NCBI GenBank assembly: GCA_947307225.1
Contig: CAMZIL010000001.1
Span: 220,120 to 284,119, forward strand
Reading direction: 5' to 3'
From: an uncultured Candidatus Saccharibacteria bacterium
GTDB lineage: Bacteria > Patescibacteriota > Saccharimonadia > Saccharimonadales > Saccharimonadaceae
DNA: 64,000 bases
Positions 13,305 to 37,407 of this stretch are shown in pieces. The position numbers and the translations under genes were made by a program. Position 1 is the stretch's first letter; the number at the start of each line of letters is the position of its first letter. A model generated the notes under the pieces. It was not told the origin of the DNA. It worked only from the letters and a program-made list of their open reading frames with translations, and made no database searches.

Positions 13305-13333
13305 AAAAATCCGCCCCTAGAGGCGGATTTTTT
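13305..13333. terminator. Bidirectional terminator between rpsT and 13335..13907
   Basis: aaaaatccgcc-cctaga-ggcggattttt hairpin flanked by A and T runs. Confidence 0.75.
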
Positions 13334-21363: not shown

Positions 21364-22388
21364 TGAATATCATTCAAAAAATTAGTCTTAAAAATTTCCG
21401 TTGTCACGAAGATTTTGTATTGGACTGTAATCGTCCTACGACTTTGATTATTGGTGAAAATGGAAGTGGAAAAACCTCCGTGCTTGAGGCAATATATATG
21501 GCTTTGCGCGGAAAAAGTTTTAAGGCGGTTGACGATGATATTTTACGGAGAGATGCGGAGTTTTATCGGATAGAAGTGGATTTATGTGATGCAAAGAAGG
21601 TAATAATTCGTTATAATCCGGTTCTCAATAAAAAAGAATTTGAGATAGACGGTAAGAAAAGTATTAGGTTGCCGAAAAAAGATCGATACCCTGTTGTGCT
21701 TTTTGAGCCAAATAACATTTATTTAATAGAATCATCTCCTTCGCGTAGACGCGATTACTTTGATGAGTTATTTAAGCAGATTGATAATAACTATACGGTA
21801 ATACTTGGACGCTATAATAAGGCTCTGAAACAGCGAAATGATTTGCTAAAAAATGAGACTATTTCTAAGGACGATTTGTTCTCGTGGGATATTCTTTGTG
21901 CACAATATGGATCACAAATAAAAGCGACGCGCAAAAGAATTTTAGACAAAATCAATGAGCGGATGACTGATAACTATCGTTGGATAGCAAAAAATAATGA
22001 TAGCTGCTCTATAAAATATGCTGGCGATATAGTCGATGAAAATGAATATTTGGCGCGCCTTGCTAAAAATTACGAGAAGGATAAAGTGTTCGGTTATACT
22101 TCATTCGGCGCACACAGAGATGATTATGAGTTTATTTTTAATAATGCGTCGGCAGATGGGTCCGCTTCGCGTGGCGAAATGAGGAGTATTATTTTGGCGC
22201 TCAAATTTATTGAGGCTAAAATTCTCGAGGAAGAAACTGGTGATAGACCAGTAGTATTACTTGATGATATCTTTTCGGAATTAGATGATGCACGTCAAAA
22301 ACATCTAGTACAAAACTTTAAAGATTATCAGATGATCATTACTAGTACGAATGTTCCGGCGGAAATGACAGTTAGTAAGAATTTATAG
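21363..22388 (+). CDS. recF: DNA replication/repair protein RecF
   Basis: 341 aa. Walker A GENGSGKTSVLEA, an SMC-like signature, Walker B VVLLDDIFSELD. Its start overlaps the dnaN stop (TAATG). Confidence 0.9.
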   Translation: MNIIQKISLKNFRCHEDFVLDCNRPTTLIIGENGSGKTSVLEAIYMALRGKSFKAVDDDILRRDAEFYRIEVDLCDAKKVIIRYNPVLNKKEFEIDGKKSIRLPKKDRYPVVLFEPNNIYLIESSPSRRRDYFDELFKQIDNNYTVILGRYNKALKQRNDLLKNETISKDDLFSWDILCAQYGSQIKATRKRILDKINERMTDNYRWIAKNNDSCSIKYAGDIVDENEYLARLAKNYEKDKVFGYTSFGAHRDDYEFIFNNASADGSASRGEMRSIILALKFIEAKILEEETGDRPVVLLDDIFSELDDARQKHLVQNFKDYQMIITSTNVPAEMTVSKNL

Positions 22389-23286
22389 TATCTAGAGTTT
22401 CTTTTTTGATACCGGGCGCATTGTAGATAGTAAATAGTGGCTGTGGGGTTGCAACAATTTCCCAATCGCCATCATCTTTTTTCTGAAGAATAATTCGGTA
22501 GTGCCCATAGGTTGTGTCATTTTTATAGTCGTTGACGTATGCGCTCGTGTAATAATATTTCCCTACTTGTTGAACTTCGTCGATGACGTAATTGTCTGAT
22601 AGGTTATAAGCTAGGCGAACGAATTTTTTTACATCAGTAACTGGATTTTGCTGATATTCTTTAGTGAATGGATTTTTGGTGTGAAAAACAATATTTTGGC
22701 TGCTTAGGTCGACATTTTTGATGGTTTTTAGTTTTGCTACTGCAACATCAAGATATTTTGGTTCAGCCTTAACGTCTATAATTGGTTTATTTTCATCATC
22801 ATAACGATAGCTAATGGAATAAAGTGAATTATTCATTGGCAAGTAAGTGAGGATAGGATAATCTAGTTTGATTTTTTGGCCCTGGCGGTTAAGTAGGTCG
22901 CCAACTAAGCCTTCAACTTTTGCAAACTCTTCGCGATGTTGGGTAATGTATTCTTTGCCCTCGTCGTCGAGCGCATTGAGAGTTCCGTATAGTTCGGCAT
23001 CTTCTTCAGTGATTTCAACATCCCTTTCATATACTTCGAAATGATTATTGTAGCTGACTTTTAGATGATACTGACCCGGTAATAGCCAGTTAGTAGAGTT
23101 ATTGGCGATGCGCGTATCGTTTAGTGTGACGGTGGCTGTATTTGGCGCAAATCTAACAATAGTTTTAGTCTTTCCGGAGCGATAAATCATCGTTGCGAGC
23201 GAGTAGAAAATGATAATTACCAAGAGCGCTGCGGATAGTATTAGTAGTGTTTTTACTCTTTTGTTTTGAATGTTTATTTTCTTCAT
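22372..23286 (-). CDS. Membrane-anchored protein with a PEGA-like beta domain; last gene of the T4SS-like operon
   Basis: The track ORF extends to 23298. The ATG at 23286 (MKKINIQNKRVKT...) forms a TAATG overlap with the upstream hydrolase stop. One TM helix, then VTLNDTRIANNSTNWLLPGQYHLKVSYNNHFEVYERDVEI, which resembles a PEGA domain. Confidence 0.5.
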   Translation of the reverse strand: MKKINIQNKRVKTLLILSAALLVIIIFYSLATMIYRSGKTKTIVRFAPNTATVTLNDTRIANNSTNWLLPGQYHLKVSYNNHFEVYERDVEITEEDAELYGTLNALDDEGKEYITQHREEFAKVEGLVGDLLNRQGQKIKLDYPILTYLPMNNSLYSISYRYDDENKPIIDVKAEPKYLDVAVAKLKTIKNVDLSSQNIVFHTKNPFTKEYQQNPVTDVKKFVRLAYNLSDNYVIDEVQQVGKYYYTSAYVNDYKNDTTYGHYRIILQKKDDGDWEIVATPQPLFTIYNAPGIKKETLDTINSY

Positions 23287-25067
23287 TAGTTGCTCCAAAC
23301 CGTATTTTGCAGATTTTGCTGATAGCTTGTGCCGTTGCCGGAAGAGTACTTTGGATTGCGGTACCAGCGAACAATTACGCCGTTGCCGTGGATAAGATCT
23401 TCGCGGCCAGCCATTGGTGCGCGACCAGAGCTAAAGCTATAGGAAGCAGAGGCAATGACGGAATCGAAACCTTGGATTTCGCCGACATAAATAAAGGTGT
23501 GGCCGCTGGAAAATGCGATGTCTCCAGCCTGAAGGATACTTGTGTCGACTGGCGTTCCTTCAGATCCATTCAAGAGACGCCAACCGTTTCTTTTTACCCA
23601 AGCTTCCTGTTCGCCGGTTGCGCCGTTGCCGTCATTATAATTTGGTTCGAGGCCAGAGTTTTGAGTAATAACAGTAACGAAGCCGCCACAGTCGATACCA
23701 GGCACGCCATTAACGGAACCGCCGACATAACGTCCTTCACTGATGGATTTTGTGACAGCATTGGCGTATTCCGGCATGCGCTGTAGATATGGGCCCTTGT
23801 GGTATTCTGGCCAAGCGTATGCTTTGACGAGGCTTTCGAAGTTCCCGTTTATTGCGCAGCCCTTGGAATTAATGTTGCTGTTTACGGTGTCATAAAGTGT
23901 CTTTGCAAATAGTTTTGCGCCTTCATCATTAGGGTGAATATAATCATACAAATATTTATCGGCTTTGCCAGCAACTTCTTTTGCCCAGTCAGCAACAACG
24001 ATATTGGAGTTTTTATTTGCAAACTCAAAGAAGAGATCATTGTTTGATTTATAGTTATTAGTTGTGCTCCAATCGGTAACAAAAGTAATGTTTTTATTGG
24101 TGCCGATGGCTTTAATGGCATTGTCAATATCTTGAGAAGTGAGGTTTGAACTGTTTGCGCCAAGTGCGAAGATCACATTATCCTTAATGTCTTTTTTGCT
24201 CTTTGCAATATCGACTGCTTCGTTCCATTTGCGTCCATTTTGCGCATAGATGTCTTTTTCGGTTAGATCTGGGAATTGTGCAAGCAAAGCGGTTTTTGAA
24301 GCAACGGTAATTGAATCGCCGAAGATAGTGAGATTTTTGCCGTCTTCTTTTGAGCTACTGGCAGTACTTCTGCCCTTGCCGGCAAATTCATCGTAGAATT
24401 CACGAGCATATTTGCGGCGGTTTGCAGTGCCCTGATAATAAAGACCAATGTATGGCGTGTAATAAAGAATTGGGCTTTCACCGTTAACGGCGCGTTCGAA
24501 AATTGCAAGGAATGCTTCGGCTGCTGCTTCTGGCGTCGTTTGCTTTTTGACCTCGGTTTGCCAGTCGTAATCATTTTCTGTGAGCGACAGCTCCAACTCG
24601 ATTTCGAGAATTCGATCGAGATCATTTTCTGGAATCTTTTTAGAAGCACCAGCTGGCCAGTATTCTGGCTGTGTGTATTGTCCTAGTCCGGCGTCGGTAA
24701 GTTTATTAATCAACTGAGTACGACGGCTATGACCCCATTGAAATAGACCGAAGAATGATGAATTACTTGCGCGGGTTGGTTCGAGACCGGTTTCTTGCTT
24801 TGCGTTGCCGAGGATACCAGCAGCCTGTGCGTCATTGAAGCCGTTGTCGATATAGAAGTTCCAGATCTTTTCTTCAATAGTATTGCCGGTGAGTTTTGTT
24901 GACGAAGAGCCGCAGAGATCGTCGCTACCGTTTGGGTTGTAATAGTAAATACCGCTACTATCGAACATATCCAAGACATCGTCGTCTGGAAGCGCGGCAA
25001 AAGCCGGCTCGGAAATTAATACTGCCGCGATGATCATTAGAATGGTTGATTTCAGAATGGTTTTCAT
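23286..25067 (-). CDS. Secreted three-domain cell-wall hydrolase: lysozyme-like + SGNH/GDSL esterase + NlpC/P60 peptidase
   Basis: 593 aa with a signal peptide (MKTILKSTILMIIAAVLISEPAFA). The N-domain GILGNAKQETGLEP...FGLFQW resembles the phage-tail-lysozyme family. The middle domain has LTIFGDSITVA (SGNH block I) and DYIHPNDEG (block V). The C-domain has GIDCGGFV (Cys) and SSGHTFIYVG (His) of NlpC/P60. ATGA overlap with 25064..27841. Confidence 0.75.
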   Translation of the reverse strand: MKTILKSTILMIIAAVLISEPAFAALPDDDVLDMFDSSGIYYYNPNGSDDLCGSSSTKLTGNTIEEKIWNFYIDNGFNDAQAAGILGNAKQETGLEPTRASNSSFFGLFQWGHSRRTQLINKLTDAGLGQYTQPEYWPAGASKKIPENDLDRILEIELELSLTENDYDWQTEVKKQTTPEAAAEAFLAIFERAVNGESPILYYTPYIGLYYQGTANRRKYAREFYDEFAGKGRSTASSSKEDGKNLTIFGDSITVASKTALLAQFPDLTEKDIYAQNGRKWNEAVDIAKSKKDIKDNVIFALGANSSNLTSQDIDNAIKAIGTNKNITFVTDWSTTNNYKSNNDLFFEFANKNSNIVVADWAKEVAGKADKYLYDYIHPNDEGAKLFAKTLYDTVNSNINSKGCAINGNFESLVKAYAWPEYHKGPYLQRMPEYANAVTKSISEGRYVGGSVNGVPGIDCGGFVTVITQNSGLEPNYNDGNGATGEQEAWVKRNGWRLLNGSEGTPVDTSILQAGDIAFSSGHTFIYVGEIQGFDSVIASASYSFSSGRAPMAGREDLIHGNGVIVRWYRNPKYSSGNGTSYQQNLQNTVWSN

Positions 25068-27841
25068 ACGAGGTAATTCCTTTTATCGATGAAGATTTGT
25101 TCGATGGTTGGAATAATTGCGACGGGATTTGAGATTGTTTCGTCGGAAAAGTCGTAATTTTCCGCTTTCGGCTTTTCTCCGCCAAATGAGTAGCGTGTGG
25201 ATGGATCATATTTTGCCATCTGATCCGAGTAGCGCACATATTCGAGGAGGAAGGCGATGTCGTCTTTGCTTTGACCGGTAATGCGAGCTAGTGTCCCTTC
25301 GAATGAAGTGTCGGTTGGGTGTTCTTTATCAAATTCTTTTTGATAAGCCAAAACAGGATTGGACTCTTCTTTGTCATCGTCCATACCGCTAATGATGCGC
25401 ATATCTTCTACGTAGCGCTGATAGTATTTGATTTCGTTTTCCCAACGAGGGTTTTCTGGACCCATGCGGCACCAGTCACCGGTGCCCCAATCGTGGTTAG
25501 CGGTATCTTCGGCGGCGTTATAAATATCAACCATGTCCTCTATGATGAAGGCGTTATTACCAATCGTACCAAAGTCGGTCTGCAATGCGTTCATGACATT
25601 AACGTCGAGGACGCCCCATGGCGACTCGCGTTCAACGCAGGCAGTAATAAACTTTGCGAGCTCGGATCCTTTTTTGATTTTGCCATCTTCGTCGAGATTT
25701 GGTTCGATGACTGCAATGTATTGTGGGTCACTCGGATCGAGATCAATAGTCGAATAATCCATGCCGACAATTTCTTGGTCATACATATCGCAGACGGTAT
25801 TATCTAGAGCTTCTGCGCCTGTACAATCGGTATAGTGTGACGTGTAGACATCGGAATTATCATAGGCGGAGCTTGTTGGTAGAAATACGTTTGTTGATTT
25901 CTTGAAGACGTTTGCGAAGTTAGACAATAAGCTAAAGGTGTTAGTCGTATAGGACATGAAGGCAAACTTCGAAAGCAAGGATCCAAGGAAAGTATTTTTG
26001 CTTGTAATGTCGAATGGGCTGCGGTGGAGACGGTCAATTTCTGCTTCTTGCGCAAGTGCAAGAGCGGTCTCGTTGTTTTGGCGTTTAATGTATTCTTCGG
26101 ACGCCGGCATATAAGCACTGGCTTGAGTTGCGAGTTTGAAGTTGGCGGCGGCGCCTCCCTGCGAGAAGAGCTCGCCGGCCGGAATGCCAGTGTAAGATTC
26201 GAAAATGTTGCCTGCAAATATTTTAGCGACGTACGGGATAATGGCGCTAACAACTGCGCTGACGACGCCGGTAATAATAATGCTGCCGACGGTTTTTGCG
26301 ACCGCAGTAACTACAAAGTTTGCTAGAGTGCCGCCCGGAACTGCGTTTGAAACGAGAGACATCACTGCGGAAGCAGCCAAGACGCCGTTACAGGTGGCAT
26401 TTGTGGCGCCGCTTGCGATTGCAATTGTCGTGGCGGCACGCGTAACGGTTTTAATGGAGTATGGTGCGGTATTTTTTGGGTCGGAAGGTGTGTTGCCGAG
26501 GACGAGTTTTGCGCCGTCAGATTGTAGTGGAGAGCCGGTTACTTCCTTTTCTTCGGTCGTACCGTCGTCGTTAACGTATTGAATTTTGTTTGTAGTTTCG
26601 CCAGTGAGGAAGTTTAGAACTTCGTTAATGGCTGAAGCGTCGCCCTCGCCTGCCATCATTTTGCTAATAGACTCCATGAGGCTAAGGAAGTATGCGGTTG
26701 ATTGAAATATTTGATAGGCTGAGACTGTAATGGCGGCCATGTTGGCGAGTTTTAATGCGGAACAAATTGGTACGCCTGCACCGACGACTTTGTTTGCCAT
26801 GCCGTTCACCATAGAACGAGCTTTTGCTTCTGGCGTGTCGCCTTCGAGCTTTCTAGTATCAACATCGTCACTCTTCGTGAGGCGCTCTTCACCGGTTTCT
26901 TCGTCGGTTGTGCGATTAACGGAGTTGAATTTTGAATCGGTACCGGTTACGCGATCGGAAACGGTATCTTTGAAGGCTTTTGTATCAGTCTCATTGTCGC
27001 CAGTAGTTTTATGTTTGTCAAAAATATCACGCGTTGCGCCCTTCTTTTTGTAGTAATAGTCGGCGGAATCATCAAAGAAGCCAGCTACGCGACCGCGCTT
27101 TGCTTTATAGTAGGATTCGCGGAAATTAGCGTCGCTGACAAACTTGTTTTGGAATGCGTTTGCGTCGATAGTTTCGTTGTTATAACGAAGAACGGTCTTC
27201 GAGGTCGATGGTTTAAGGCCGTTATCAACATGGAAAACGCCGTCCGCATCAAGATGGCCAACTTCAATGCCGTTCTTTTTGAGGCGCGTCTTCATGTAAG
27301 GCGTGAAAGTAGTATAGCGTTTGCTAAAGCGACTGATGGTGATTTGGTCGCCACCGTTAATGAGATACTTGAAAATGCGCGCATTGCGGGAGTTGTAGGA
27401 AGTAAACTGAAGATCGGTAGCCTCAGTGTATAAGCTGGATAGATGAGGGCCAAGAATGGACTGCGAAGCATAGAAGAGTGCGCCGCCGCCAAATAGGAGG
27501 CTCATGATGATCGTGATTGGCGCAACGCGACGTTTGAAGTTGCCCTTGCCCTTTCCGCCCTTGGCGGTAGCTTTAGTTTTGCGTGATGCATTGCGGCCAG
27601 TGACAGAATTGCGAAAAGAGCCGTAGTTGCGAACGCGTTCACGTTCAACACTCTTTAGGTTTTCGATAGCGCGATCAGAAAAGCGTTCTGGAGAGGATTC
27701 GTCAGAGGTAGATGCGGATTTTTCTGCATCAGAAAGTTCTTGGCGCGCGATATAATCCGGCCTAATTTCAGGAGCCTCCATACCGTTGTATGGATCGTGC
27801 CTGCCGCGATACTTTTTACCACCTGAATTGTCTGACGACAT
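25064..27841 (-). CDS. Large polytopic membrane protein of the T4SS-like operon (family unknown); paralog of 1..2330
   Basis: 925 aa. Basic N-terminus, a TM helix (APITIIMSLLFGGGALFYA), a roughly 230-aa exposed region, a cluster of Gly/Ala-rich TM helices, and a roughly 330-aa C-terminal domain. Lies between the virB4-like gene and the hydrolase gene. Confidence 0.7.
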   Translation of the reverse strand: MSSDNSGGKKYRGRHDPYNGMEAPEIRPDYIARQELSDAEKSASTSDESSPERFSDRAIENLKSVERERVRNYGSFRNSVTGRNASRKTKATAKGGKGKGNFKRRVAPITIIMSLLFGGGALFYASQSILGPHLSSLYTEATDLQFTSYNSRNARIFKYLINGGDQITISRFSKRYTTFTPYMKTRLKKNGIEVGHLDADGVFHVDNGLKPSTSKTVLRYNNETIDANAFQNKFVSDANFRESYYKAKRGRVAGFFDDSADYYYKKKGATRDIFDKHKTTGDNETDTKAFKDTVSDRVTGTDSKFNSVNRTTDEETGEERLTKSDDVDTRKLEGDTPEAKARSMVNGMANKVVGAGVPICSALKLANMAAITVSAYQIFQSTAYFLSLMESISKMMAGEGDASAINEVLNFLTGETTNKIQYVNDDGTTEEKEVTGSPLQSDGAKLVLGNTPSDPKNTAPYSIKTVTRAATTIAIASGATNATCNGVLAASAVMSLVSNAVPGGTLANFVVTAVAKTVGSIIITGVVSAVVSAIIPYVAKIFAGNIFESYTGIPAGELFSQGGAAANFKLATQASAYMPASEEYIKRQNNETALALAQEAEIDRLHRSPFDITSKNTFLGSLLSKFAFMSYTTNTFSLLSNFANVFKKSTNVFLPTSSAYDNSDVYTSHYTDCTGAEALDNTVCDMYDQEIVGMDYSTIDLDPSDPQYIAVIEPNLDEDGKIKKGSELAKFITACVERESPWGVLDVNVMNALQTDFGTIGNNAFIIEDMVDIYNAAEDTANHDWGTGDWCRMGPENPRWENEIKYYQRYVEDMRIISGMDDDKEESNPVLAYQKEFDKEHPTDTSFEGTLARITGQSKDDIAFLLEYVRYSDQMAKYDPSTRYSFGGEKPKAENYDFSDETISNPVAIIPTIEQIFIDKRNYLV

Positions 27842-27890
27842 ATCTCTTTAATTATACAATTTTTCAGAGAGATTGTCGACGATAAACACT

Positions 27891-29684: not shown

Positions 29685-29685
29685 T

Positions 29686-30528: not shown

Positions 30529-30537
30529 GTTGACTCC

Positions 30538-31584
30538 TTAGTGTAATGAAATATAAACTTCGTTATCGTTTCCTTTTTTCTCTTGTATGCGCCTTGCCTG
30601 TTGCGCGATTGTCTCGATCGAGAAATCGGTATTATTAGCAAGGTTTTGCATATCTGCGTCTGGTACTGGCGGGGCTTCTGGTTCTGGAATTGGTTCTGGA
30701 GCCGGAGCGCTCTGCTCTTCGACGGCTGCAACTTCCTCGACGGAAGCTGGCTTTGAGAGCGCATCATGAATTTCGTCGATATCTGGCTGAATCGTTGCGG
30801 CGCTGGCAGCAACGTTGACCTGCCCAGACATCGGGTTGATAGGAGACATTGCTTGCATCTGTGGCGGAAGCGATTCGTAGCCGGTAGTTGGTTCTGGGTT
30901 GTAAGTCGGCATAACTGGAGGCTGGAACGCAACTGGTTCCGGAACCGGCGTTTGATGAGTGATAGTTGGCGTCTCATGTGGAGCGTCGCCATAAATGCTG
31001 TTTTTATTGATAGCGTCACGCATTTGCTCGACGAGTTGAGCATGATGAGTAGCATTGTTCTGCTCTAGAGTTTGGTTGAGATTGTAGCTCTGACTCTTTT
31101 CGTAAATATCCTGCATCTCGGCAGCTTCGTTTGCGACATCATCGCGAAGGTTAGAGTTGGTTTCCTTGATGGCGTAACCTTCGGTATCGACGATGTTGGC
31201 GAGGAAGGAAAGACGATGGCTAGCCTCTTCCTGGCTGAGATCTTTGGTACGGTTTTCCTCAACAACCTTTGGTGCTGTGACGGTAATAGCAGTATCGGAC
31301 TGCCCTGGCATCCAAACGCGTTTTTGTGGTTTCAAATAGAAATCTACAACAGCGGAGAGATAAGTTTCCATCGGCTGATCTTTTTTGAGCGGCAAAGCAA
31401 GAATGCCAAGAAAGATAATGACCGGAATCGGAATAATGACTAATAGTGGAAAAATCTGGAACAAAAGAAAGGCAACAAAACCAAGACCCGCGGCAATCAT
31501 TAGATAGACGAATTGGCGGAAGCTAAAAGGACCGATAAGTTTATCGTCCGCCTCGACATCTTGAGGGACCTTATATTGAGCCAT
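30538..31584 (-). CDS. PrgI-family (VirB3-like) T4SS membrane protein with a long C-terminal extension
   Basis: 348 aa. The N-terminus MAQYKVPQDVEADDKLIGPFSFRQFVYLMIAAGLGFVAFLLF plus a second TM helix matches the PrgI-family signature. It sits immediately upstream of the virB4-like ORFs. Confidence 0.7.
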   Translation of the reverse strand: MAQYKVPQDVEADDKLIGPFSFRQFVYLMIAAGLGFVAFLLFQIFPLLVIIPIPVIIFLGILALPLKKDQPMETYLSAVVDFYLKPQKRVWMPGQSDTAITVTAPKVVEENRTKDLSQEEASHRLSFLANIVDTEGYAIKETNSNLRDDVANEAAEMQDIYEKSQSYNLNQTLEQNNATHHAQLVEQMRDAINKNSIYGDAPHETPTITHQTPVPEPVAFQPPVMPTYNPEPTTGYESLPPQMQAMSPINPMSGQVNVAASAATIQPDIDEIHDALSKPASVEEVAAVEEQSAPAPEPIPEPEAPPVPDADMQNLANNTDFSIETIAQQARRIQEKKGNDNEVYISLH

Positions 31585-31610
31585 ACTTATATTTTACCAT
31601 AAACACAATA

Positions 31611-31640
31611 CAAAAAGCGCCGGATATTACCGGCGCCTTT
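31611..31640 (-). terminator. Terminator after the VirB6-like gene
   Basis: Minus-strand RNA reads aaaggcgccgg-taatat-ccggcgcttttt. It is followed by a TGGTAAAAT -10 element 6 nt from the ATG of 30538..31584. Confidence 0.7.
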
Positions 31641-31656
31641 AAGAGGATTTTTGTTT

Positions 31657-34584
31657 TTAGGTAAGCTTGATGCCGAGCATCTTGCGTACGGACTGGTTCA
31701 TGCTTGCGCGCTGTGACGACATGTTCGCCTTCTGGAGCGACTCTCTCTGGTTTGCGAGCGTATCGAGAAGCTCACGGCTAACCATACCACCATCGGTTTG
31801 GACACCATCATGGTTGAGCTCGAGGAGCGCATCGTTGAACTGTGCGAGAGTTGCGGTCTTGACGCTTGCGAGCTGGCCAGCGGTCATATCGCGGAAGTAC
31901 TTGACGAGGTTATCGTGGACTTCTTGGCGGTGAGCGTTGAAGAAGGTGTTATCGCCATTCTTTCTATAGCCGTAGGTCATGTACTTGTTGAAGGAAGCGA
32001 GCTGTTCACCATCCATCATGCCAGAACATGCAGACGCACGGAGGTGCTTAATATCTGTGAAGATATAGTGATCATCGTCAAGGAGACCCTTCTTTGCAGC
32101 TGAGAGCATGAAGTTGTACATCGTGCGGTCAGCGCCAGCGTAGATCTTACCATCTTTAACGTTCGTAAGGATGGACTCGATATCGACCATACGGAAGACG
32201 TCGAGATCGTCCTGGTTGTTGTAGATCTTTTCGCCATTAACTTCGTTGTAGGAAAGATCGAGGTGATCGCCTGGCATGAATCTACCATTAAGGAAGGTCT
32301 TGAAGTCGATGAATGGATCGAGGACTGGAGTCTTGCCCTTTGCGATAGCGTGGTTGTATTTACCGCGGCGAATCATGTTAGCCTTAGCCCAAGCCCAGAG
32401 GATAGGGTCATCAGACTTGAGGGCGAGACAGGAGTCGTTGAGCTCCTTCTGGAAGCGGATGTGGTCTTCGCTGTCGCCAACGAGTCCAGCGGTGCCGTCG
32501 CCGAGAATCTCCATAATATCGCCGTAGTCGCCACGTTTAGCCATGACTGCGATAGCTGCGTTCATCGAGTTGTAGTCACCACTCTTGATAGATTCGGTAA
32601 GAGCGTTGCCTGGGATAGTACCAGCTGGAGAATCATCGTAAAGTTCGTAGTAGACGCCCTGGGCTTCCTTGTTGAGCTTGCGGCGAGATGCGATAGCGTC
32701 AGCAAGCGTAAAGTTGATTGCCTGGCGGCCAGTATCATAGAAGGCCTTTTCGGATGCAGTGAGTGGACCAGCAGCGAGTGCGGCGAGTTCGTCGGCATTG
32801 AGAGTCTTGCCAGCGAGACGCTTCTTCTCTGCTTCCTCGTATGCACGCTTCTTGATAGAAATCGTGTCATAATCTTCAGCATTGATGTTGAAGGCATCGA
32901 GAACGCGCTGATGGATTGCGTTGCCCTCCGCATCGACGTGCTCGCGAATAAGCTCAGCACGGCTCTTAGCATTGTTGTGGGTAACGACGCGGCGGCGAGA
33001 TTCGGCAGTGTGGCTATCAACGATAGCATTTTCGTATGCTCTGTTGATAGATCTGACCTGAGCGAGATCGCGTGCGCGGACGCGCTTGTCGGTGCCGTCA
33101 TCCTTGAAGCCTTCATCGAAGTCGCTTTCAATATTCATACGAGTAGTTGCGTAATCAAGCTTGCGGCGCTCGTTCTCATAGTGGCGAATACCACGAGAGT
33201 TGAGGGTGCCGTCACGGCGACGCCAGGTTGCCATTGCGTTGGTGAGGTTACGATCCTTGTTATTAATAGCAAGTTCGTTCGTATCAAACTCACGCTTTAC
33301 ACGCTGGCGCTCGAGGTATTGAGCGAGGCGAGTAGATGGCATCGTAGGATTATGCTTGTTGAGCTGCTTTTGCTTAGCGAGAGCCTGATGGCTGAGGGAC
33401 CAGCGACCAGCAGCTGCCTGAGCAGGCATCGTTGCGCGATGGACGAGACCGTCGATCTTGCCAAGAACAGTATTAGACATACGCATGAGTGGGATGGACA
33501 TGAAGAGTGGAAGAATCTTGACGGCGATACCGAGGACGACGCCGAGCCAGTTGGTTGCGGAAGTGATAATGACGAGACCAGCGAGCTGGGATGCGCCATA
33601 AAGAATGCTAAACATTGGGTAGAAGAACAACATCTGCGCGAGAGTGTGGTACCACTTTTGGAACCACTTCTCGGTGTTTGGAAGCATGTAGGCGATAAGT
33701 GCGACTGGGGAGATTAGGACGAGCAAGAAGATGAGCGCCTGACGAGCTGCCATGGTGATAACAGCGGAAATGACGGCGATAAGGCCAGAAAGAAGAACTG
33801 GAAGAAGGACCCAGATGACGCCACCGATACCACCATATACTACGGCGCCAGCAAAGACTGCGCCGGCTGCGGTACCGATACCGAGCATAGCTGCGACGAT
33901 ACCAGAGACGGATGCGCCACCAGCTGCATCAGAGATGGTACCGTTTTCAATAGCGATGTCTTGGATATTCTTGAAGAAGCCCTGGAAGCTGTTGCCGAGA
34001 ACGTTGCTGACATCGACGGCGAGCGTACAGATAATGTAGCTAAGGTTTACGAGGATGGCAGTAATAATAATGCGCGGGAGAACCTTCTTGATGCCGTAGT
34101 TATTAATGCCGACACCGGTGAGCTGCGAGAAGATGACAACGAGGAAGAACACTACGAATAGTGCGTTTGCGAGGTTCTTGAAGTAATCCCAGACGACGTA
34201 GATAGGAGAGCTGGTATCAGTTGGAATCGGGTTTACTTCGATAATCTGGGTAAGAAGACCGTAGGCGCCATCGATGACATTACCGAAGAGACCTGCGCCC
34301 GGACAAATGATCCAACCCAAACTACCCACCTGGTCGTAACAACTAACTTTAGAGGAGTCCTCATCGTCTCCCTCTTCGCCGGTATCGTTAGTGTTGTTAT
34401 CAGTGGGTTCTGAATTATCAGCTGGGGTCGTAGCACCTGGTTCATCTGTTACAATAGAGGTGTTTGCGTCATTATTATTACCATTACCGGAATTCGGAGT
34501 CGCAAAAACGGGGCCGGATAATGCTAATACGCCAAATACGGCCGCTATAACAGATAGGACGATGCTTTTAATACACTTGCCCAT
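31657..34584 (-). CDS. VirB6/TrbL-like polytopic T4SS membrane protein with a roughly 600-aa C-terminal soluble domain
   Basis: The track ORF runs to 34605. I prefer the ATG at 34584 (MGKCIKSIVLSVIAAVFGVLALSGPVFA, a signal peptide), which lies 9 nt downstream of TGTGCTATAAT. The exposed Cys-containing segment (CYDQVGSLGWIICPGAGLF) and at least 6 TM helices fit the topology of VirB6/ConG-like channel subunits. Confidence 0.6.
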   Translation of the reverse strand: MGKCIKSIVLSVIAAVFGVLALSGPVFATPNSGNGNNNDANTSIVTDEPGATTPADNSEPTDNNTNDTGEEGDDEDSSKVSCYDQVGSLGWIICPGAGLFGNVIDGAYGLLTQIIEVNPIPTDTSSPIYVVWDYFKNLANALFVVFFLVVIFSQLTGVGINNYGIKKVLPRIIITAILVNLSYIICTLAVDVSNVLGNSFQGFFKNIQDIAIENGTISDAAGGASVSGIVAAMLGIGTAAGAVFAGAVVYGGIGGVIWVLLPVLLSGLIAVISAVITMAARQALIFLLVLISPVALIAYMLPNTEKWFQKWYHTLAQMLFFYPMFSILYGASQLAGLVIITSATNWLGVVLGIAVKILPLFMSIPLMRMSNTVLGKIDGLVHRATMPAQAAAGRWSLSHQALAKQKQLNKHNPTMPSTRLAQYLERQRVKREFDTNELAINNKDRNLTNAMATWRRRDGTLNSRGIRHYENERRKLDYATTRMNIESDFDEGFKDDGTDKRVRARDLAQVRSINRAYENAIVDSHTAESRRRVVTHNNAKSRAELIREHVDAEGNAIHQRVLDAFNINAEDYDTISIKKRAYEEAEKKRLAGKTLNADELAALAAGPLTASEKAFYDTGRQAINFTLADAIASRRKLNKEAQGVYYELYDDSPAGTIPGNALTESIKSGDYNSMNAAIAVMAKRGDYGDIMEILGDGTAGLVGDSEDHIRFQKELNDSCLALKSDDPILWAWAKANMIRRGKYNHAIAKGKTPVLDPFIDFKTFLNGRFMPGDHLDLSYNEVNGEKIYNNQDDLDVFRMVDIESILTNVKDGKIYAGADRTMYNFMLSAAKKGLLDDDHYIFTDIKHLRASACSGMMDGEQLASFNKYMTYGYRKNGDNTFFNAHRQEVHDNLVKYFRDMTAGQLASVKTATLAQFNDALLELNHDGVQTDGGMVSRELLDTLANQRESLQKANMSSQRASMNQSVRKMLGIKLT

Positions 34585-34722
34585 AACTATTCTATTATAG
34601 CACACATAAGCATTTTCGTCAAGTATTATGTAGTGATTTTTAGGGTTTTTCGAGGGTTTTTACCATTTTTGCTTAAGTTTTTGCGCTTTTCAGGGCTTTT
34701 ATCGTATAATTAAGGTAATATT

Positions 34723-35199
34723 ATGAAGAAAAAACTTATTTTAGTGCTAGCGGTGGGATTGACGCTGGGTATTTCTCTGTTGGCTGTGCCAGGCGCTTAC
34801 GCTAATAGTAGTTCTAGCCCAAATAGTACAGAGACGACTGGAAATTCGACGGAACCGAAGAAAAAGTGTACTTCTATCCTTCCCGGCGAGCTATGTGATG
34901 ATGACAATAAGGGCGAAGGTATTACATATATTATTAGCCTCGTGATTGCGATTTTGACTGGCGCCGTAGTGGTGGCCGGTACGATCGGTATTATTATTTG
35001 TGGCGTGACCTGGATGACGGCTCGTGAGAATGAGGCACAGGTTGCGATGGCAAAGAAGAGGATGCTCGATATTATAATTGGCTTGGTGGCTTGGGTGCTT
35101 TTGGCACTGGTGGCGAATCTGTTTATTCCAAAGAGTACTGATGAAATCGAAAAAAATAAAAGGGGCGAGATTACGAAGAGCCTCGGGAGTAAAGCATGA
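34723..35199 (+). CDS. Pilin-like T4SS protein (VirB2/TrbC topology), subtype A
   Basis: 158 aa. Signal peptide, an exposed Cys-containing segment, then two hydrophobic helices separated by MTARENEAQVAMAKKRMLDIIIG. Paralogous to the N-terminal module of 42629..43864. Confidence 0.65.
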   Translation: MKKKLILVLAVGLTLGISLLAVPGAYANSSSSPNSTETTGNSTEPKKKCTSILPGELCDDDNKGEGITYIISLVIAILTGAVVVAGTIGIIICGVTWMTARENEAQVAMAKKRMLDIIIGLVAWVLLALVANLFIPKSTDEIEKNKRGEITKSLGSKA

Positions 35200-35852
35200 A
35201 AAAACTAGTAGTTGCTCTAGCGGTGGCTTTTATGTCAGTCCTAGGGCTAGTGATGTTGCCTGCGCAGAATGCGGCGGCAGCAGATTGTAGAACGCATTTC
35301 TTGGGTTTGCCGGCATGGTATGACGGTTTGACCGAAGGCAGCGACTGTCATATTAAGTCGCCTCAAGATGCCGACGGCGTAAAGACCTATGTTTGGACGA
35401 TTGTCTTGAACATCGTCTGTATGGTTCTCGGCGTAGTCGGTTATGTTGCGATCGGTTTCGTGATGTGGGGCGGTATTCAATATATGCTCGCTCAAGGTGA
35501 TCCTGGCAAGGTGGCTAGGGGTAAAAAGACGATTTTGAACGCGATCATTGGTTTGATTATTACGATGTCAGCCTCGATTTTAAGTGGCGCGATTTCCGGA
35601 ATCGTATCTGGTGCCAGCACCGGTAGCGGCAAGGCATTCTTTGGCGATCTCTTTGGCAAGGTCTTCTTCTGGAGCGGTGTCATTGCAGTCATTATGATTG
35701 TTTACGGTGGCATCCAATATATTACAAGCGTTGGCAACCCAGCAGGTATTGCTAAGGCGAAAAACACTATTCTCTACTCGCTAGTCGGTTTGATTATCGT
35801 AATTGCGGCGGCGGCGATTGTAAGCACGGTAGTAGGAGCAATACCAGAATGA
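35196..35852 (+). CDS. Pilin-like T4SS protein with two tandem pilin modules
   Basis: 218 aa. The first module ends in GGIQYMLAQGDPGKVARGKKTILNAIIGLIITMSAS and the second in GGIQYITSVGNPAGIAKAKNTILYSLVGLIIVIAAAAIV. ATGA overlaps at both ends. Confidence 0.7.
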   Translation: MKKLVVALAVAFMSVLGLVMLPAQNAAAADCRTHFLGLPAWYDGLTEGSDCHIKSPQDADGVKTYVWTIVLNIVCMVLGVVGYVAIGFVMWGGIQYMLAQGDPGKVARGKKTILNAIIGLIITMSASILSGAISGIVSGASTGSGKAFFGDLFGKVFFWSGVIAVIMIVYGGIQYITSVGNPAGIAKAKNTILYSLVGLIIVIAAAAIVSTVVGAIPE

Positions 35853-36235
35853 AAAAACTAATAGCATTAATATTCGCAGCAATTATTTCGTTTGGTGCGC
35901 TATGCGTAGTCCCAACCTACGCCTCGGCAGCCAACAACGACGCATGTAATAAATATAAGAATAAGAGCGACCCAAACTACAAGATTGTTTGTGGCAGCGG
36001 CAGTGAGGAAAAGGCTGAGAACACCGTGAAGAGCGTTCTACAGACAGTCTTCCTCTGGACTGGTATCATCGCTGTAATTGTTATTGTGATTGGCGGCATT
36101 TTCTATACGATTTCCCAGGGCGATCCTGGCAAGATTAAGAAGGCGAAGGATACGATTTTGTATGCAATCATTGGTTTGATTGTGTCGTTGCTTTCTTTCG
36201 CGATCGTTACATTTGTTTTGGACAAAATACAATAA
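35849..36235 (+). CDS. Pilin-like T4SS protein, subtype B
   Basis: 128 aa. Signal peptide, then the shared core GGIFYTISQGDPGKIKKAKDTILYAIIGLIVSLLSFAIVTFVL. Confidence 0.7.
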   Translation: MKKLIALIFAAIISFGALCVVPTYASAANNDACNKYKNKSDPNYKIVCGSGSEEKAENTVKSVLQTVFLWTGIIAVIVIVIGGIFYTISQGDPGKIKKAKDTILYAIIGLIVSLLSFAIVTFVLDKIQ

Positions 36236-36247
36236 TAAGGAGGTGTT

Positions 36248-36529
36248 ATGAGCCTAAAGCTTTTGGCGGAAGGTATTCGACAACAGGTAAATAATGTCGG
36301 TGGCCAGGATTTGGAGACCGATGTTAGCAAAGGTATCAAGGCGGCAATTTTCTGCGCCGGTATCGTGGCGGTGTTCGTGATTATCCTCGGCGGCGTCAAT
36401 TACATGATGTCTCAGGGCGATTCGGGCAAAATTGCAAAAGCAAAGAACACTATTATATATGGTTTGATTGGCTTGATTGTGACGATTTTAGCCTTCGCAA
36501 TCGTAAGCTTTGTCCTAAGTAGATTTTAA
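36248..36529 (+). CDS. Pilin-like T4SS protein, subtype B (short, no classical signal peptide)
   Basis: 93 aa with the core GGVNYMMSQGDSGKIAKAKNTIIYGLIGLIVTILAFAIVSFVL. An aaggagg SD lies upstream. Confidence 0.65.
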   Translation: MSLKLLAEGIRQQVNNVGGQDLETDVSKGIKAAIFCAGIVAVFVIILGGVNYMMSQGDSGKIAKAKNTIIYGLIGLIVTILAFAIVSFVLSRF

Positions 36530-36580
36530 TTACGAATATGGTATTATATAAATAAGGAACTTTTCTAAAAAGGAGAAAGA

Positions 36581-37087
36581 ATGAAAAAACTAGGTAAAAT
36601 CTTAAAAGGTGGAGCGATTGCGATCTTCGTAGCGCTTCTCGTCACCGTTCCGGTATTTGCAGATGCAAAGTCGAACTGTGAGAAGAAGCTTAACGTTAAG
36701 CTCACGAACGGTACCAAGCCAAGTGGCAACGGTACTTGGATTAAGTGTGGCGGCACGATGAAGATCGGCAACACTACTTACTCTATCTATGGTCACGACC
36801 AAGCAGCTTGTGCAAACGCTGGTCAGGCTGCAAGCAACCCAGAGCAGTGTGAAGGCGATGATCTTAACAGTGTTATCCAGATCATCATCAACACCATTAT
36901 CTTTGCTATCGGTATGGTTTCCGTTATCATGATTATCCTTGGTGGTATTAGCTATGCAACTTCCCAGGGTGATCCTGCTAAGGTCAAGAAAGGCAAAGAC
37001 ACCATCCTTTACGGTATTATCGGTTTGGTCGTTGCGCTTCTCGCATTTGCAATTGTCAGCTTCGTATTAAACGCACTAAGTAGCTAG
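36581..37087 (+). CDS. Pilin-like T4SS protein, subtype B
   Basis: 168 aa. Signal peptide, an exposed Cys-rich segment, and the core GGISYATSQGDPAKVKKGKDTILYGIIGLVVALLAFAIVSFVLNAL. An aaaggag SD lies upstream. Confidence 0.7.
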   Translation: MKKLGKILKGGAIAIFVALLVTVPVFADAKSNCEKKLNVKLTNGTKPSGNGTWIKCGGTMKIGNTTYSIYGHDQAACANAGQAASNPEQCEGDDLNSVIQIIINTIIFAIGMVSVIMIILGGISYATSQGDPAKVKKGKDTILYGIIGLVVALLAFAIVSFVLNALSS

Positions 37088-37095
37088 GAGTAAAA

Positions 37096-37407
37096 ATGTC
37101 AGTACTATCAATTCTCGCAAGCACTCAAGCAGGTCAAGCCAAGAACGGCGTTAATGCTATCGGTGGTAGTAGTAGCGACGATCTCACTGCAAGCATCAGC
37201 ACCATCATCAATGCAGTTATCTTTGTTATCGGTATTGTCGCCGTTATCATGATTATCCTCGGCGGTATCAGCTATGCTACCTCCCAGGGCGACCCAGCAA
37301 AGGTTAAAAAAGGTAAGGACACTATCCTTTACGGCATCATCGGTTTGATTGTTGCCCTTCTTGCCTTCGCGATTGTTGGCTTCGTGCTCAACGCATTGCA
37401 GAAATAA
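37096..37407 (+). CDS. Pilin-like T4SS protein, subtype B (short)
   Basis: 103 aa. The core GGISYATSQGDPAKVKKGKDTILYGIIGLIVALLAFAIVGFVLNAL is nearly identical in protein to 36581..37087 but has many synonymous differences. Confidence 0.7.
   Translation: MSVLSILASTQAGQAKNGVNAIGGSSSDDLTASISTIINAVIFVIGIVAVIMIILGGISYATSQGDPAKVKKGKDTILYGIIGLIVALLAFAIVGFVLNALQK

What the first reader, a model, noticed from the sequence alone, without database searches (positions are those of the whole stretch)
22372..37407. Origin-proximal, monoderm-type T4SS-like apparatus with no visible DNA-transfer module
Seven minus-strand genes are joined by 1-4 nt overlaps or very short gaps: a VirB6-like protein (31657..34584), a PrgI/VirB3-like protein (30538..31584), a two-part VirB4 (29686..30528 and 27891..29684), a 925-aa polytopic protein, a three-domain wall hydrolase and a PEGA-like protein. 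They face a divergent operon of six pilin-like genes. The set resembles the minimal Gram-positive conjugation machinery (ConG/ConD/ConE/CwlT logic). However, the 64 kb contains no relaxase, no VirD4/FtsK-type coupling ATPase, no integrase and no att-like boundaries, and the cluster ends inside the recF 3' end about 2.4 kb from the oriC spacer. This argues for a chromosomally fixed secretion or surface-filament machine rather than an ICE. In a reduced-genome, possibly episymbiotic bacterium it is a strong candidate for host contact or effector delivery. T4SS-like genes have been noted before in Saccharibacteria, so the new points are the composition (extra polytopic protein family, pilin expansion, hydrolase architecture) and the core-genome position.
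Basis: partly seen in the sequence, partly recalled or inferred. Interest (0 to 1): 0.8.

Follow-up and report, generated by a model that had tools for sequence, protein, structure and literature searches.

The report
Saccharibacteria origin-side type IV secretion system
This is the chromosomal, relaxase-less type IV secretion system with a pilin gene array that sits next to the replication origin in Saccharibacteria; it is real and biologically important, but it was already described and shown to be essential in a close relative, so this is a rediscovery.

Summary
Seven minus-strand genes (22372-34584) face six plus-strand VirB2-like pilin genes (34723-37407), directly downstream of dnaA-dnaN-recF. 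HMM tests confirm five assignments:
- a VirB4 ATPase of the monoderm CD1110 family, above NCBIfam's cut-off;
- a separate TrsD protein that matches exactly the N-terminal part of VirB4 profiles that the ATPase lacks;
- PrgI/VirB3;
- a lysozyme + SGNH + NlpC/P60 wall hydrolase;
- T4SS pilins.

The VirB6 call has only moderate fold support. The PEGA call is unverified. The 925-aa protein has no known fold. I found no relaxase, coupling ATPase, integrase or att repeats in the 64 kb.

The window comes from a gut or rumen Saccharibacterium. Gene order matches SEML1_0004-0021 of Southlakia epibionticum, where Tn-seq showed the cluster to be essential (Wang 2023). The monoderm ancestry, the TrsD split, the pilin arrays, the missing relaxase and the dnaA proximity are all published (McLean 2020; Quiñonero-Coronel 2025).

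My modest additions:
- VirB4 and TrsD are far more conserved than DnaA, while the exposed parts evolve fast.
- The 925-aa family (1336 cluster representatives) is a scaffold with two insertion hot spots that carry catalytic domains in relatives.
- The hydrolase's SGNH domain resembles that of OatA.

Function and substrate remain unknown.

The parts
22372..23298 (-). 308-aa membrane-anchored exported protein (TM helix 17-35). It occupies the position of SEML1_0004/0005 (prealbumin-like / PEGA proteins).
   Evidence: ORF; TM. No significant HMM hit; the best is a transthyretin-like domain at E 0.22. Detected in 16/80 related loci at 23-52% identity.
23286..25067 (-). Secreted three-domain wall hydrolase: lysozyme-like (res 65-228), SGNH (res 245-400; G250-D-S252, N305, D375-x-x-H378), NlpC/P60 (res 453-537; C460, H523).
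   Evidence: Phage_lysozyme2 4e-23; GDSL_2 0.01; NlpC/P60 0.021. The SGNH part hits OatA C-terminal domains 6vjp at 9.8e-7 and 5ufy at 0.011 (entry identities from PMC9487903). Motifs were read from the translation.
25064..27841 (-). 925-aa membrane protein of unknown fold. It has a basic N-terminus, a TM helix at 106-124, hydrophobic helices around 358-396 and 463-543, and a C-terminal domain with conserved Cys 673/684/735/791. Positional counterpart of SEML1_0007.
   Evidence: No Pfam, NCBIfam or PDB hit, also when searched as a profile. The family has 1336 representatives at E<=1e-3. AF2 pLDDT is 53.5 and the fold search gave nothing. Relatives carry CHAP, GDSL or Metallophos inserts at two hot spots.
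27891..29684 (-). VirB4 ATPase, larger part (597 aa). Walker A at A263-S270 (GAGKS), Walker B at L473-E477.
   Evidence: NF045971 conju_CD1110 1.4e-116, 390.6 bits > cut-off 325, profile positions 174-732/752. P-loop_TraG 7e-30. PDB 4ag5 7.7e-48. 81-94% identical in 80 Saccharibacteria genomes.
29686..30528 (-). TrsD-like protein (280 aa), equivalent to the detached N-terminal segment of VirB4.
   Evidence: NF041427 TrsD 1e-8. It also matches TIGR00929 at positions 18-179/792, NF045975 at 102-254/894 and NF045971 at 12-138/752. These are the parts the 597-aa protein does not cover. It is a separate, abutting ORF in all 80 related loci. It is not a paralogue of the 597-aa protein (hhalign).
30538..31584 (-). 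PrgI/VirB3-like membrane protein with a long proline-rich C-terminal tail.
   Evidence: PF12666 PrgI 1.2e-13, 51.9 bits > 27; sequence.
31613..31640 (-). Terminator-like hairpin between the VirB6-like gene and prgI.
   Evidence: 11-bp stem with 7 GC pairs and a T run. This is a consensus match only.
31657..34584 (-). Extended VirB6-like protein (975 aa from ATG 34584): signal peptide, conserved Cys89/Cys101, 6-7 TM helices at 143-375, and a 600-aa alpha-solenoid C-terminal domain.
   Evidence: No significant HMM hit. AF2 pLDDT 72.6. Foldseek matches R388 TrwI/VirB6 chains 8rtd_L, 8rt9_F and 7o3v_J with prob 0.94-0.97, TM 0.36-0.40 and E 0.13-0.22. Many homologues carry a precomputed PF19590 hit. 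The start follows P0121, which is 975 aa and 100% identical.
34723..35199 (+). VirB2-like pilin 1 (sub-threshold).
   Evidence: PF18895 5e-5, 23.7 bits < 26.6. Signal peptide plus two TM helices.
35196..35852 (+). Tandem double VirB2-like pilin 2.
   Evidence: PF18895 9.7e-22, two matched stretches.
35849..36235 (+). VirB2-like pilin 3.
   Evidence: PF18895 1.6e-9.
36248..36529 (+). VirB2-like pilin 4.
   Evidence: PF18895 3.1e-10.
36581..37087 (+). VirB2-like pilin 5.
   Evidence: PF18895 2.9e-10.
37096..37407 (+). VirB2-like pilin 6.
   Evidence: PF18895 4.1e-13. 74% identical to pilin 5 over 91 aa.
38764..39168 (-).
   Evidence: PF18895 5.9e-11. Present in 65/80 related loci.
42629..43864 (+). 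Pilin-like N-terminus fused to a VanY D,D-carboxypeptidase domain. Possibly associated with the system.
   Evidence: VanY 5e-11; PF18895 4.3e-4, sub-threshold.
18631..22388 (+). dnaA, dnaN and recF: the origin-side context.
   Evidence: Pfam; DnaA-box-like cluster at 18474-18593; GC skew.

Best explanation
This is the Saccharibacteria (Patescibacteria-clade) type IV secretion system. It is a descendant of the monoderm MPF-FATA conjugation machine that has become a fixed, origin-proximal chromosomal locus. It is the positional orthologue of SEML1_0004-0019 of Southlakia epibionticum, which is essential for growth on the host.

Shown here:
- A split VirB4 motor (TrsD plus a 597-aa ATPase with intact Walker motifs).
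- A PrgI/VirB3 membrane anchor.
- A secreted lysozyme/SGNH/NlpC-P60 wall hydrolase.
- Seven VirB2-type pilin genes.
- No DNA-processing genes within 64 kb.

Inferred assembly:
- TrsD, VirB4 and PrgI form the cytoplasmic-membrane engine.
- The extended VirB6-like protein forms the membrane channel. Its 600-aa cytoplasmic alpha-solenoid domain may act as a docking platform in place of a coupling protein.
- The hydrolase and the 925-aa scaffold protein open the peptidoglycan of the epibiont and/or the host. The OatA-like SGNH domain would strip O-acetyl groups so that the muramidase can cut.
- The pilins polymerise into a tube or filament that reaches the host envelope.

The machine is therefore a contact conduit to the host bacterium, not a conjugation apparatus. 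The substrate and its direction are not shown. My rough split is: import or extraction of host macromolecules 0.35, export of effectors 0.35, attachment only 0.15, conjugation 0.05.
For: - Component assignments. VirB4 is above the curated CD1110-family cut-off. TrsD and VirB4 cover complementary parts of three VirB4 profiles. PrgI and five pilins are above their gathering scores.
- VirB6-like fold.
- Hydrolase domains.
- Organism: the 80 best VirB4 relatives are all uncultured assemblies. Most are labelled Saccharibacteria or Nanosyncoccaceae; a few carry other or generic labels.
- Conserved order comF-hsp20-pilins-VirB6like-PrgI-TrsD-VirB4-variable module-recF-dnaN-dnaA.
- Same order and gene sizes as SEML1_0003-0022, where nearly all of these genes are Tn-seq essential.
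- No relaxase, T4CP or integrase domains in the window and no att-like repeats.
- Strong purifying selection on the motor: VirB4 84% and TrsD 76% median identity, against DnaA 48%, DnaN 58% and RecF 55% in the same 33 genomes.
- Published phylum-wide survey with the same conclusions.
- Tubular structures at a Patescibacteria-host interface, suggested to be T4SS pili.
Against: - No substrate, effector or direction of transport can be read from the sequence.
- The VirB6 assignment rests on a fold match below usual significance (E 0.13, TM 0.39) and on a precomputed Pfam accession whose name I could not check.
- No VirB8-like component was found in this window.
- The 925-aa and 308-aa proteins have no assignable fold. 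Their membership of the machine is inferred from operon position and from the essentiality of the ML1 counterparts.
- The rest of this genome was not available, so a distant T4CP or relaxase cannot be excluded.
- The loci compared were picked by VirB4 similarity, which inflates VirB4 identity somewhat.
Confidence: 0.85

Rival explanations
1. It is a nucleic-acid or nutrient import machine. A T4CP-less T4SS would run inward, as in H. pylori ComB or the archaeal Ced system, and pull host DNA, RNA or nucleotides through the pilin tube to feed an organism that cannot make nucleotides.
For: - No coupling protein or relaxase near the locus.
- A conserved comF-like gene lies beside the pilin array in 49/80 loci.
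- ComEC competence is dispensable in S. epibionticum while the T4SS is essential, and import has been proposed in the literature.
- A Patescibacteria relative feeds on host RNA and shows tubular structures at the interface.
Against: - There is no direct evidence for direction.
- The weak CedB/CedD matches of VirB4 only reflect the shared ATPase fold.
- The ML1 comF-like gene is non-essential.
- No nuclease or nucleic-acid-binding component is recognisable in the locus.
Confidence: 0.35
2. It is an effector or toxin export machine that manipulates or damages the host bacterium, comparable to the Xanthomonas bacteria-killing T4SS or the Streptococcus suis 89K system.
For: - The exposed parts (VirB6-like, 925-aa protein, hydrolase, pilins) evolve fast while the motor is frozen. 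This is the pattern expected for host-facing components.
- Relatives of the 925-aa protein carry swappable catalytic domains.
- The window also encodes an AvrRxo1-family zeta-toxin-like kinase and a weak Fic-like protein about 19 kb away.
- Effector delivery has been speculated in the literature.
Against: - No coupling protein is present to recruit cytoplasmic substrates.
- No effector with a recognisable T4SS signal is known.
- The AvrRxo1-like gene is not linked to the locus and may be an ordinary toxin-antitoxin module.
Confidence: 0.35
3. It is a conjugative element (ICE), or the decayed remnant of one, that happens to lie near oriC.
For: - VirB4 belongs to a family of conjugal transfer ATPases (CD1110).
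- A tRNA-Ser gene lies at the right edge of the cluster.
- GC is slightly raised (0.49-0.52) across 26-34 kb.
Against: - No relaxase, T4CP, integrase or recombinase in 64 kb.
- No direct repeats flank the region.
- The same locus sits between recF and hsp20/comF in dozens of species.
- The motor is more conserved than DnaA.
- The ML1 orthologues are essential.
- Relaxases are rare in the phylum.
Confidence: 0.05

Closest known systems
Southlakia epibionticum ML1 T4SS, SEML1_0006-0019 with neighbours 0004/0005 (Wang et al. 2023, Cell; PMC10633639)
   Same: The order is the same: recF, small exported proteins, multi-domain lysozyme/cysteine-peptidase hydrolase, a large roughly 1000-aa protein, VirB4, TrsD-like, PrgI, VirB6-like with an ARM-like domain, six pilins on the opposite strand, hsp20, comF-like, tRNA-Ser, further pilin. 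There is no relaxase or coupling protein in the cluster.
   Different: - This window has one extended VirB6-like gene, not two, and lacks the NTF2-like SEML1_0012 gene between them.
- The 925-aa protein lacks the C-terminal DD-peptidase domain reported for SEML1_0007.
- The hydrolase has an SGNH domain where ML1 has a second lysozyme-like domain.
- One 308-aa protein replaces two small ones.
- I did not align the sequences directly with ML1.
Patescibacteria-clade T4SS as surveyed by Quiñonero-Coronel et al. 2025 (Microb Genom; PMC12102498)
   Same: VirB4 related to MPF-FATA; adjacent TrsD, PrgI/VirB3 and VirB6; VirB2 arrays of 2-11 divergent pilins; no relaxase; dnaA/dnaN neighbourhood.
   Different: No difference in kind. 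That study does not describe the 925-aa family or the SGNH domain of the hydrolase.
Monoderm conjugative T4SS of the MPF-FATA class (pGO1 TrsC-TrsD-TrsE-TrsF-TrsG; CTn2 CD1110; pCF10 PrgH-L; ICEBs1 ConB-G/CwlT)
   Same: VirB4 is of the CD1110 family. TrsD is a separate gene upstream of VirB4, as in pGO1. There is a PrgI/VirB3-like protein and a multi-domain wall hydrolase, and no outer-membrane core. The pGO1 gene order is recalled from memory.
   Different: There is no relaxase or T4CP nearby and no surface adhesin of the PrgB type. A VirB2-type pilin array is present, which Gram-positive systems lack. The locus is chromosomal, origin-proximal and, in the relative, essential.
T4CP-less T4SSs: Bordetella Ptl, Brucella VirB, H. 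pylori ComB
   Same: They work without a nearby coupling ATPase, and none of them is conjugative.
   Different: They are diderm systems with a VirB7/9/10 core complex. There is no sequence relationship beyond VirB4 and VirB2.

Membership tests
Type IV secretion system, monoderm MPF-FATA class | VirB4-family ATPase of the monoderm type with intact Walker A/B | tested here: met
   NF045971 conju_CD1110 1.4e-116, 390.6 bits > cut-off 325. PDB 4ag5 (Thermoanaerobacter VirB4) 7.7e-48. GAGKS at 266-270 and DE at 476-477.
Type IV secretion system, monoderm MPF-FATA class | VirB3-like (PrgI/TrsC) small membrane protein next to VirB4 | tested here: met
   PF12666 PrgI, 51.9 bits > 27. It lies two genes upstream of VirB4.
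Type IV secretion system, monoderm MPF-FATA class | VirB6-like polytopic channel protein | tested here: inconclusive
   No significant HMM hit. The AF2 model matches R388 TrwI/VirB6 with prob 0.94-0.97, but at E 0.13-0.22 and TM 0.36-0.40. Homologues carry a precomputed PF19590 hit, a family absent from the local Pfam copy; I recall its name as TrbL_3.
Type IV secretion system, monoderm MPF-FATA class | VirB1-like peptidoglycan hydrolase in the cluster | tested here: met
   Phage_lysozyme2 4e-23, plus an SGNH domain (6vjp 9.8e-7) and NlpC/P60 motifs.
Type IV secretion system, monoderm MPF-FATA class | VirB8-like (NTF2-fold) bitopic protein | tested here: not met
   No Pfam or NCBIfam hit in any cluster gene. 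The ML1 NTF2-like gene has no counterpart here. The fold of the 308-aa protein was not predicted, so a cryptic VirB8-like domain is not excluded.
Conjugative element (ICE / conjugative T4SS) | Relaxase, type IV coupling protein, integrase, att boundaries | tested here: not met
   None appears among ORFs of 150 aa or more in the 64 kb, and no flanking direct repeats were found. The rest of the genome is not testable here.
Patescibacteria-clade T4SS (Wang 2023; Quiñonero-Coronel 2025) | VirB4 of the Patescibacteria clade | tested here: met
   81-94% identity to the VirB4 of 80 uncultured genome assemblies, most of them labelled Saccharibacteria or Nanosyncoccaceae; 596 confirmed relatives among the candidates. 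No tree was built.
Patescibacteria-clade T4SS (Wang 2023; Quiñonero-Coronel 2025) | Separate TrsD gene adjacent to virB4 | tested here: met
   NF041427 1e-8 and complementary coverage of the VirB4 profiles. A separate ORF in 80/80 loci.
Patescibacteria-clade T4SS (Wang 2023; Quiñonero-Coronel 2025) | Array of divergent VirB2-like pilins near virB4 | tested here: met
   Six in tandem plus one nearby, with PF18895 E-values from 1e-9 to 1e-22 (the first is sub-threshold). Pairwise identity is 25-74%.
Patescibacteria-clade T4SS (Wang 2023; Quiñonero-Coronel 2025) | Chromosomal position near dnaA/dnaN | tested here: met
   The cluster abuts recF, about 2.1 kb from the dnaA-dnaN spacer. The same arrangement is seen in 33 of the 80 related loci within the 10 kb fetched.
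Patescibacteria-clade T4SS (Wang 2023; Quiñonero-Coronel 2025) | Essential for epibiotic growth | not testable with these tools
   Shown only for S. epibionticum ML1 by Tn-seq.

The most novel reading that the evidence does not exclude
The fast-evolving module between virB4 and recF may be the host-wall-breaching, host-range-determining head of the machine. It consists of the 925-aa scaffold family, whose C-terminal domain has two insertion hot spots that accept CHAP, SGNH, metallophosphatase or DD-peptidase cassettes in different species, and a hydrolase that pairs a muramidase with an OatA-like de-O-acetylase and an endopeptidase. The frozen TrsD/VirB4 motor would then drive a pilin tube that extracts host macromolecules.
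Probability: 0.2. Interest if true: 0.75.

Novelty: already known. Interest (0 to 1): 0.3.

Why it matters
The Saccharibacteria T4SS is one of the few machines known to be essential for the epibiotic lifestyle of Patescibacteria, and its substrate is a recognised open question. This window adds another well-preserved instance from a gut or rumen lineage. It also gives a few testable details:
- a motor that is far more conserved than DnaA, against rapidly diverging exposed parts;
- a large uncharacterised scaffold family with swappable enzyme inserts;
- a hydrolase that may remove peptidoglycan O-acetyl groups.

It does not reveal a new kind of system.

Tried and rejected
- **TrsD as a paralogue of VirB4's own N-terminus.** An hhalign comparison of 80-sequence alignments found no relationship. 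TrsD instead matches the N-terminal profile segments that VirB4 lacks.
- **PDB sequence and profile searches** for TrsD, the 925-aa protein and the VirB6-like protein found nothing.
- **AF2 model of the 925-aa protein** from a 25-sequence alignment was poor (pLDDT 53.5). Its fold search gave only noise. I draw no conclusion from it.
- **Pfam accessions PF19590 and PF26593** are attached to homologues in the precomputed tables. Neither could be named or reproduced with the local Pfam copy, so I treat them only as hints.
- **A fused TrsD-VirB4 protein (Rosetta stone).** The best 120 TrsD homologues are all 260-360 aa, in line with the published absence of fusions.
- **ICE boundaries.** The only direct repeats between 16 and 44 kb are the pilin paralogues.
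- **PEGA domain in the 308-aa protein.** Not detected; the best match is a transthyretin-like domain at E 0.22.
It was replaced by a scan of eight long members.

Full report

Yes. The ORF table shows seven minus-strand genes:
- 22372-23298 (308 aa)
- 23286-25067 (593 aa)
- 25064-27841 (925 aa)
- 27891-29684 (597 aa)
- 29686-30528 (280 aa)
- 30538-31584 (348 aa)
- 31657-34605/34584 (982/975 aa)

Six plus-strand genes lie between 34723 and 37407. Junctions range from a 13-nt overlap to a 72-nt gap. The 72-nt gap between the VirB6-like gene and prgI holds a terminator-like hairpin. Promoter-like sites precede the 925-aa gene and the VirB6-like gene. The 'operon' may therefore be two or three transcription units.

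On the left are yidC, jag, dnaA, dnaN and recF. Three TTTTCCACA boxes sit just upstream of dnaA. Cumulative GC skew rises steadily from about 20 kb. The 308-aa gene overlaps the 3' end of recF by 17 nt. On the right are hsp20, a comF-like phosphoribosyltransferase, a seventh pilin (38764-39168, minus strand), tRNA-Ser and groESL.

**2. Component assignments**

*VirB4.* The 597-aa protein is a VirB4 ATPase.
- NCBIfam NF045971 (conju_CD1110, a monoderm conjugal-transfer ATPase family) scores 390.6 bits against a curated cut-off of 325, at E 1.4e-116.
- Pfam P-loop_TraG gives 7e-30.
- The closest solved structure is the Thermoanaerobacter VirB4 C-terminal domain 4ag5, at 7.7e-48.
- Walker A (GAGKS 266-270) and Walker B (DE 476-477) are intact.

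- The 280-aa protein matches NF041427 TrsD at 1e-8.
- It also matches profile positions 18-179 of TIGR00929, 102-254 of NF045975 and 12-138 of NF045971.
- The 597-aa protein covers 239-731, 285-893 and 174-732 of the same three profiles.
- The two genes are separate, abutting ORFs in all 80 related genomes examined, so this is not a frameshift.
- The two proteins are not paralogues of each other.

*Other components.*
- PrgI/VirB3 passes Pfam's gathering score.
- Five of the six tandem pilins pass PF18895. The first is sub-threshold but has the same signal-peptide-plus-hairpin architecture. The second is a tandem double pilin.

**3. The wall hydrolase**

The 593-aa protein has a signal peptide and three domains.
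- A Phage_lysozyme2 domain (4e-23).
- A middle SGNH domain with G250-D-S252, G303-x-N305 and D375-x-x-H378. Its closest solved relatives are the C-terminal SGNH domains of the peptidoglycan O-acetyltransferase OatA: 6vjp at 9.8e-7 and 5ufy at 0.011. The identity of those entries is confirmed in PMC9487903.
- A weak NlpC/P60 match with a plausible Cys460/His523 pair.

The protein lacks the acetyl-donating membrane domain of OatA. I therefore infer that the SGNH domain acts as a de-O-acetylase that makes O-acetylated peptidoglycan accessible to the muramidase. This is an inference, not a result.

**4. The less certain parts**

*VirB6-like protein.* It has no significant HMM hit.
- An AlphaFold2 model built from 28 homologues has mean pLDDT 72.6, and about 90 over residues 500-980.
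- Foldseek finds R388 TrwI/VirB6 chains with probability 0.94-0.97. E-values are only 0.13-0.22 and target-normalised TM-scores only 0.36-0.40.
- The large C-terminal domain matches alpha-solenoid proteins.
- I rate the VirB6 assignment as probable but not proven.

*The 925-aa protein.* It has one clear TM helix and a few weakly hydrophobic helices.
- It has no Pfam, NCBIfam or PDB match, even when searched as a 60-sequence profile.
- Its model is too poor to use.
- It belongs to a sizeable family: 1336 cluster representatives at E<=1e-3 and 491 at E<=1e-30.
- Relative to the window protein, longer members carry inserts at two recurrent positions. At about residue 717-721 there is a GDSL/SGNH domain in P0395, and unassigned inserts of about 200 aa in four others. 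At about residue 815-825 there is CHAP in P0085, a calcineurin-like phosphoesterase in P0423, and an unassigned insert of about 190 aa in P0039.
- The ML1 counterpart has a C-terminal DD-peptidase domain.
- The window's copy is therefore the bare scaffold of a family that often carries wall-active enzymes.

*The 308-aa protein.* It is membrane-anchored, but the PEGA label is not reproduced. Its best match is a transthyretin-like domain at E 0.22.

**5. No DNA-transfer module in the window**

Pfam scans of essentially all ORFs of 150 aa or more found no relaxase, VirD4/FtsK/TcpA-type ATPase, integrase or recombinase. A repeat search between 16 and 44 kb found only the pilin paralogues. The rest of the genome could not be examined. 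The literature reports VirD4-like genes far from virB4 in many Patescibacteria, including a non-essential one in ML1.

**6. Organism and synteny**

The 80 best VirB4 matches in one-genome-per-species GTDB contigs are all uncultured assemblies. Most are labelled Saccharibacteria, Nanosyncoccaceae or Nanosyncoccus, largely from rumen and gut, at 81-94% identity.

tblastn of the window's proteins against these loci shows a conserved order: comF, hsp20, pilin array, VirB6-like, PrgI, TrsD, VirB4, a variable module, recF, dnaN, dnaA, yidC. dnaA, dnaN and recF all lie within the 10 kb fetched in 33 of the 80 loci.

Conservation is very uneven in those 33 genomes:
- VirB4 84% and TrsD 76% median identity.
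- DnaA 48%, DnaN 58% and RecF 55%.
- VirB6-like 40% and the 925-aa protein 34%.
- The hydrolase matches over only about a third of its length.

The variable module can differ outright. In L013, VirB4 is followed by a 482-aa hydrolase and a 225-aa anchored protein, then recF, with no 925-aa gene. L021 is rearranged. The loci were chosen by VirB4 similarity, which biases VirB4 identity upward, but that cannot account for a gap of this size.

**7. What is already known**

- McLean et al. 2020 (PMC7427843) described a conserved Saccharibacteria region with VirB4, VirB6, VirB2 and PrgI homologues and an array of four to six secreted small proteins.
- Wang et al. 2023 (PMC10633639) defined the S. 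epibionticum T4SS as SEML1_0006-0019, immediately after dnaA, dnaN and recF. They showed by Tn-seq that it is essential. They noted its resemblance to Gram-positive conjugative systems, the pilin series and the lack of coupling and relaxase proteins.
- Their tables list the same succession of genes and similar sizes. These include a PEGA protein, a lysozyme/cysteine-peptidase hydrolase, a 1113-aa protein, VirB4, a TrsD-sized gene, PrgI, two VirB6-like proteins with ARM-like domains, six pilins, hsp20, a comF-like gene and tRNA-Ser.
- Quiñonero-Coronel et al. 2025 (PMC12102498) surveyed the phylum. They reported the Patescibacteria VirB4 clade next to MPF-FATA, widespread TrsD, PrgI and VirB6, 441 pilin arrays of 2-11 genes, near absence of relaxases, and enrichment of dnaA/dnaN near virB4 with a gene-dosage hypothesis.
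- A 2025 FEMS review summarises this. A 2024 PNAS perspective calls the role 'completely unknown'.

**8. Mechanism**

*Shown:* a split VirB4 motor, a VirB3-like anchor, a secreted multi-domain wall hydrolase, seven VirB2-type pilins, and no nearby DNA-processing genes.

*Inferred:*
- TrsD, VirB4 and PrgI form the membrane engine.
- The extended VirB6-like protein forms the channel. Its cytoplasmic solenoid may serve as a docking platform.
- The hydrolase and the 925-aa scaffold open the peptidoglycan.
- The pilins form a tube or filament toward the host.

*Unknown:* the substrate and its direction. I give roughly equal weight to import of host macromolecules and export of effectors, less to attachment only, and very little to conjugation.

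**9. Verdict**

This is another member of the same orthologous locus with minor differences: a single VirB6-like gene, an SGNH domain in the hydrolase, and an insert-free 925-aa scaffold. Interest as a discovery is low to moderate. The incremental observations in sections 3, 4 and 6 may be useful to people working on this machine.

Noticed in passing
window 56599-57936 (+), with 55296-56036, 56039-56599, 57945-58148 and 58264-58482: A 445-aa protein matches the XopAJ/AvrRxo1 family of zeta-toxin-like type III effector kinases (NF041405, E 3.7e-42, 144.7 bits, below the curated cut-off of 300). Upstream lie an HD-domain protein and a protein with a weak Fic/DOC match (E 0.0032; motif HFFADGCGK). 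Downstream are two small paralogous ORFs of 67 and 72 aa. This could be a toxin-antitoxin module or a candidate effector set.
   Followed up: partly
window 42629-43864 (+): A 411-aa protein combines a pilin-like N-terminal hairpin (PF18895, E 4.3e-4) with a VanY D,D-carboxypeptidase domain (5e-11). It may be a wall enzyme tethered like a T4SS pilin.
   Followed up: no
window 27891-30528 compared with 18631-22388, across L001-L080: VirB4 (median 84% identity) and TrsD (76%) are far more conserved between Saccharibacteria species than DnaA (48%), DnaN (58%) or RecF (55%) in the same genomes. The VirB6-like protein, the 925-aa protein and the hydrolase diverge fast.
   Followed up: yes
window 22372-34584 (-): The seven structural genes lie on the minus strand to the right of the presumed origin, so they are transcribed head-on to replication. 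The pilin array is co-directional with replication. The same orientation holds in the related loci.
   Followed up: no
window 2980-5277 (+): A 765-aa protein with five ricin-B lectin repeats (PF14200, 6e-43) sits among polysaccharide genes (EpsG, Wzz, epimerase). It could be a carbohydrate-binding adhesin.
   Followed up: no
window 10772-12718 (-) and 12806-13306 (-): A 648-aa protein has only weak DHH/NrnA-like matches (E 3e-4 to 0.013). A 166-aa protein beside it has no match. Both are uncharacterised.
   Followed up: no
L013 11863-13988; L021 11862-21401: In some related species the stretch between virB4 and recF is only about 2 kb and holds a 482-aa hydrolase and a 225-aa anchored protein, with no 925-aa gene. 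In others recF/dnaN are not within 10 kb. The module downstream of virB4 is therefore a variable region.
   Followed up: partly
window 38284-38751 (+): A comF-like phosphoribosyltransferase gene lies between hsp20 and the seventh pilin. It is conserved there in 49 of 80 related loci. Its ML1 counterpart is non-essential.
   Followed up: partly
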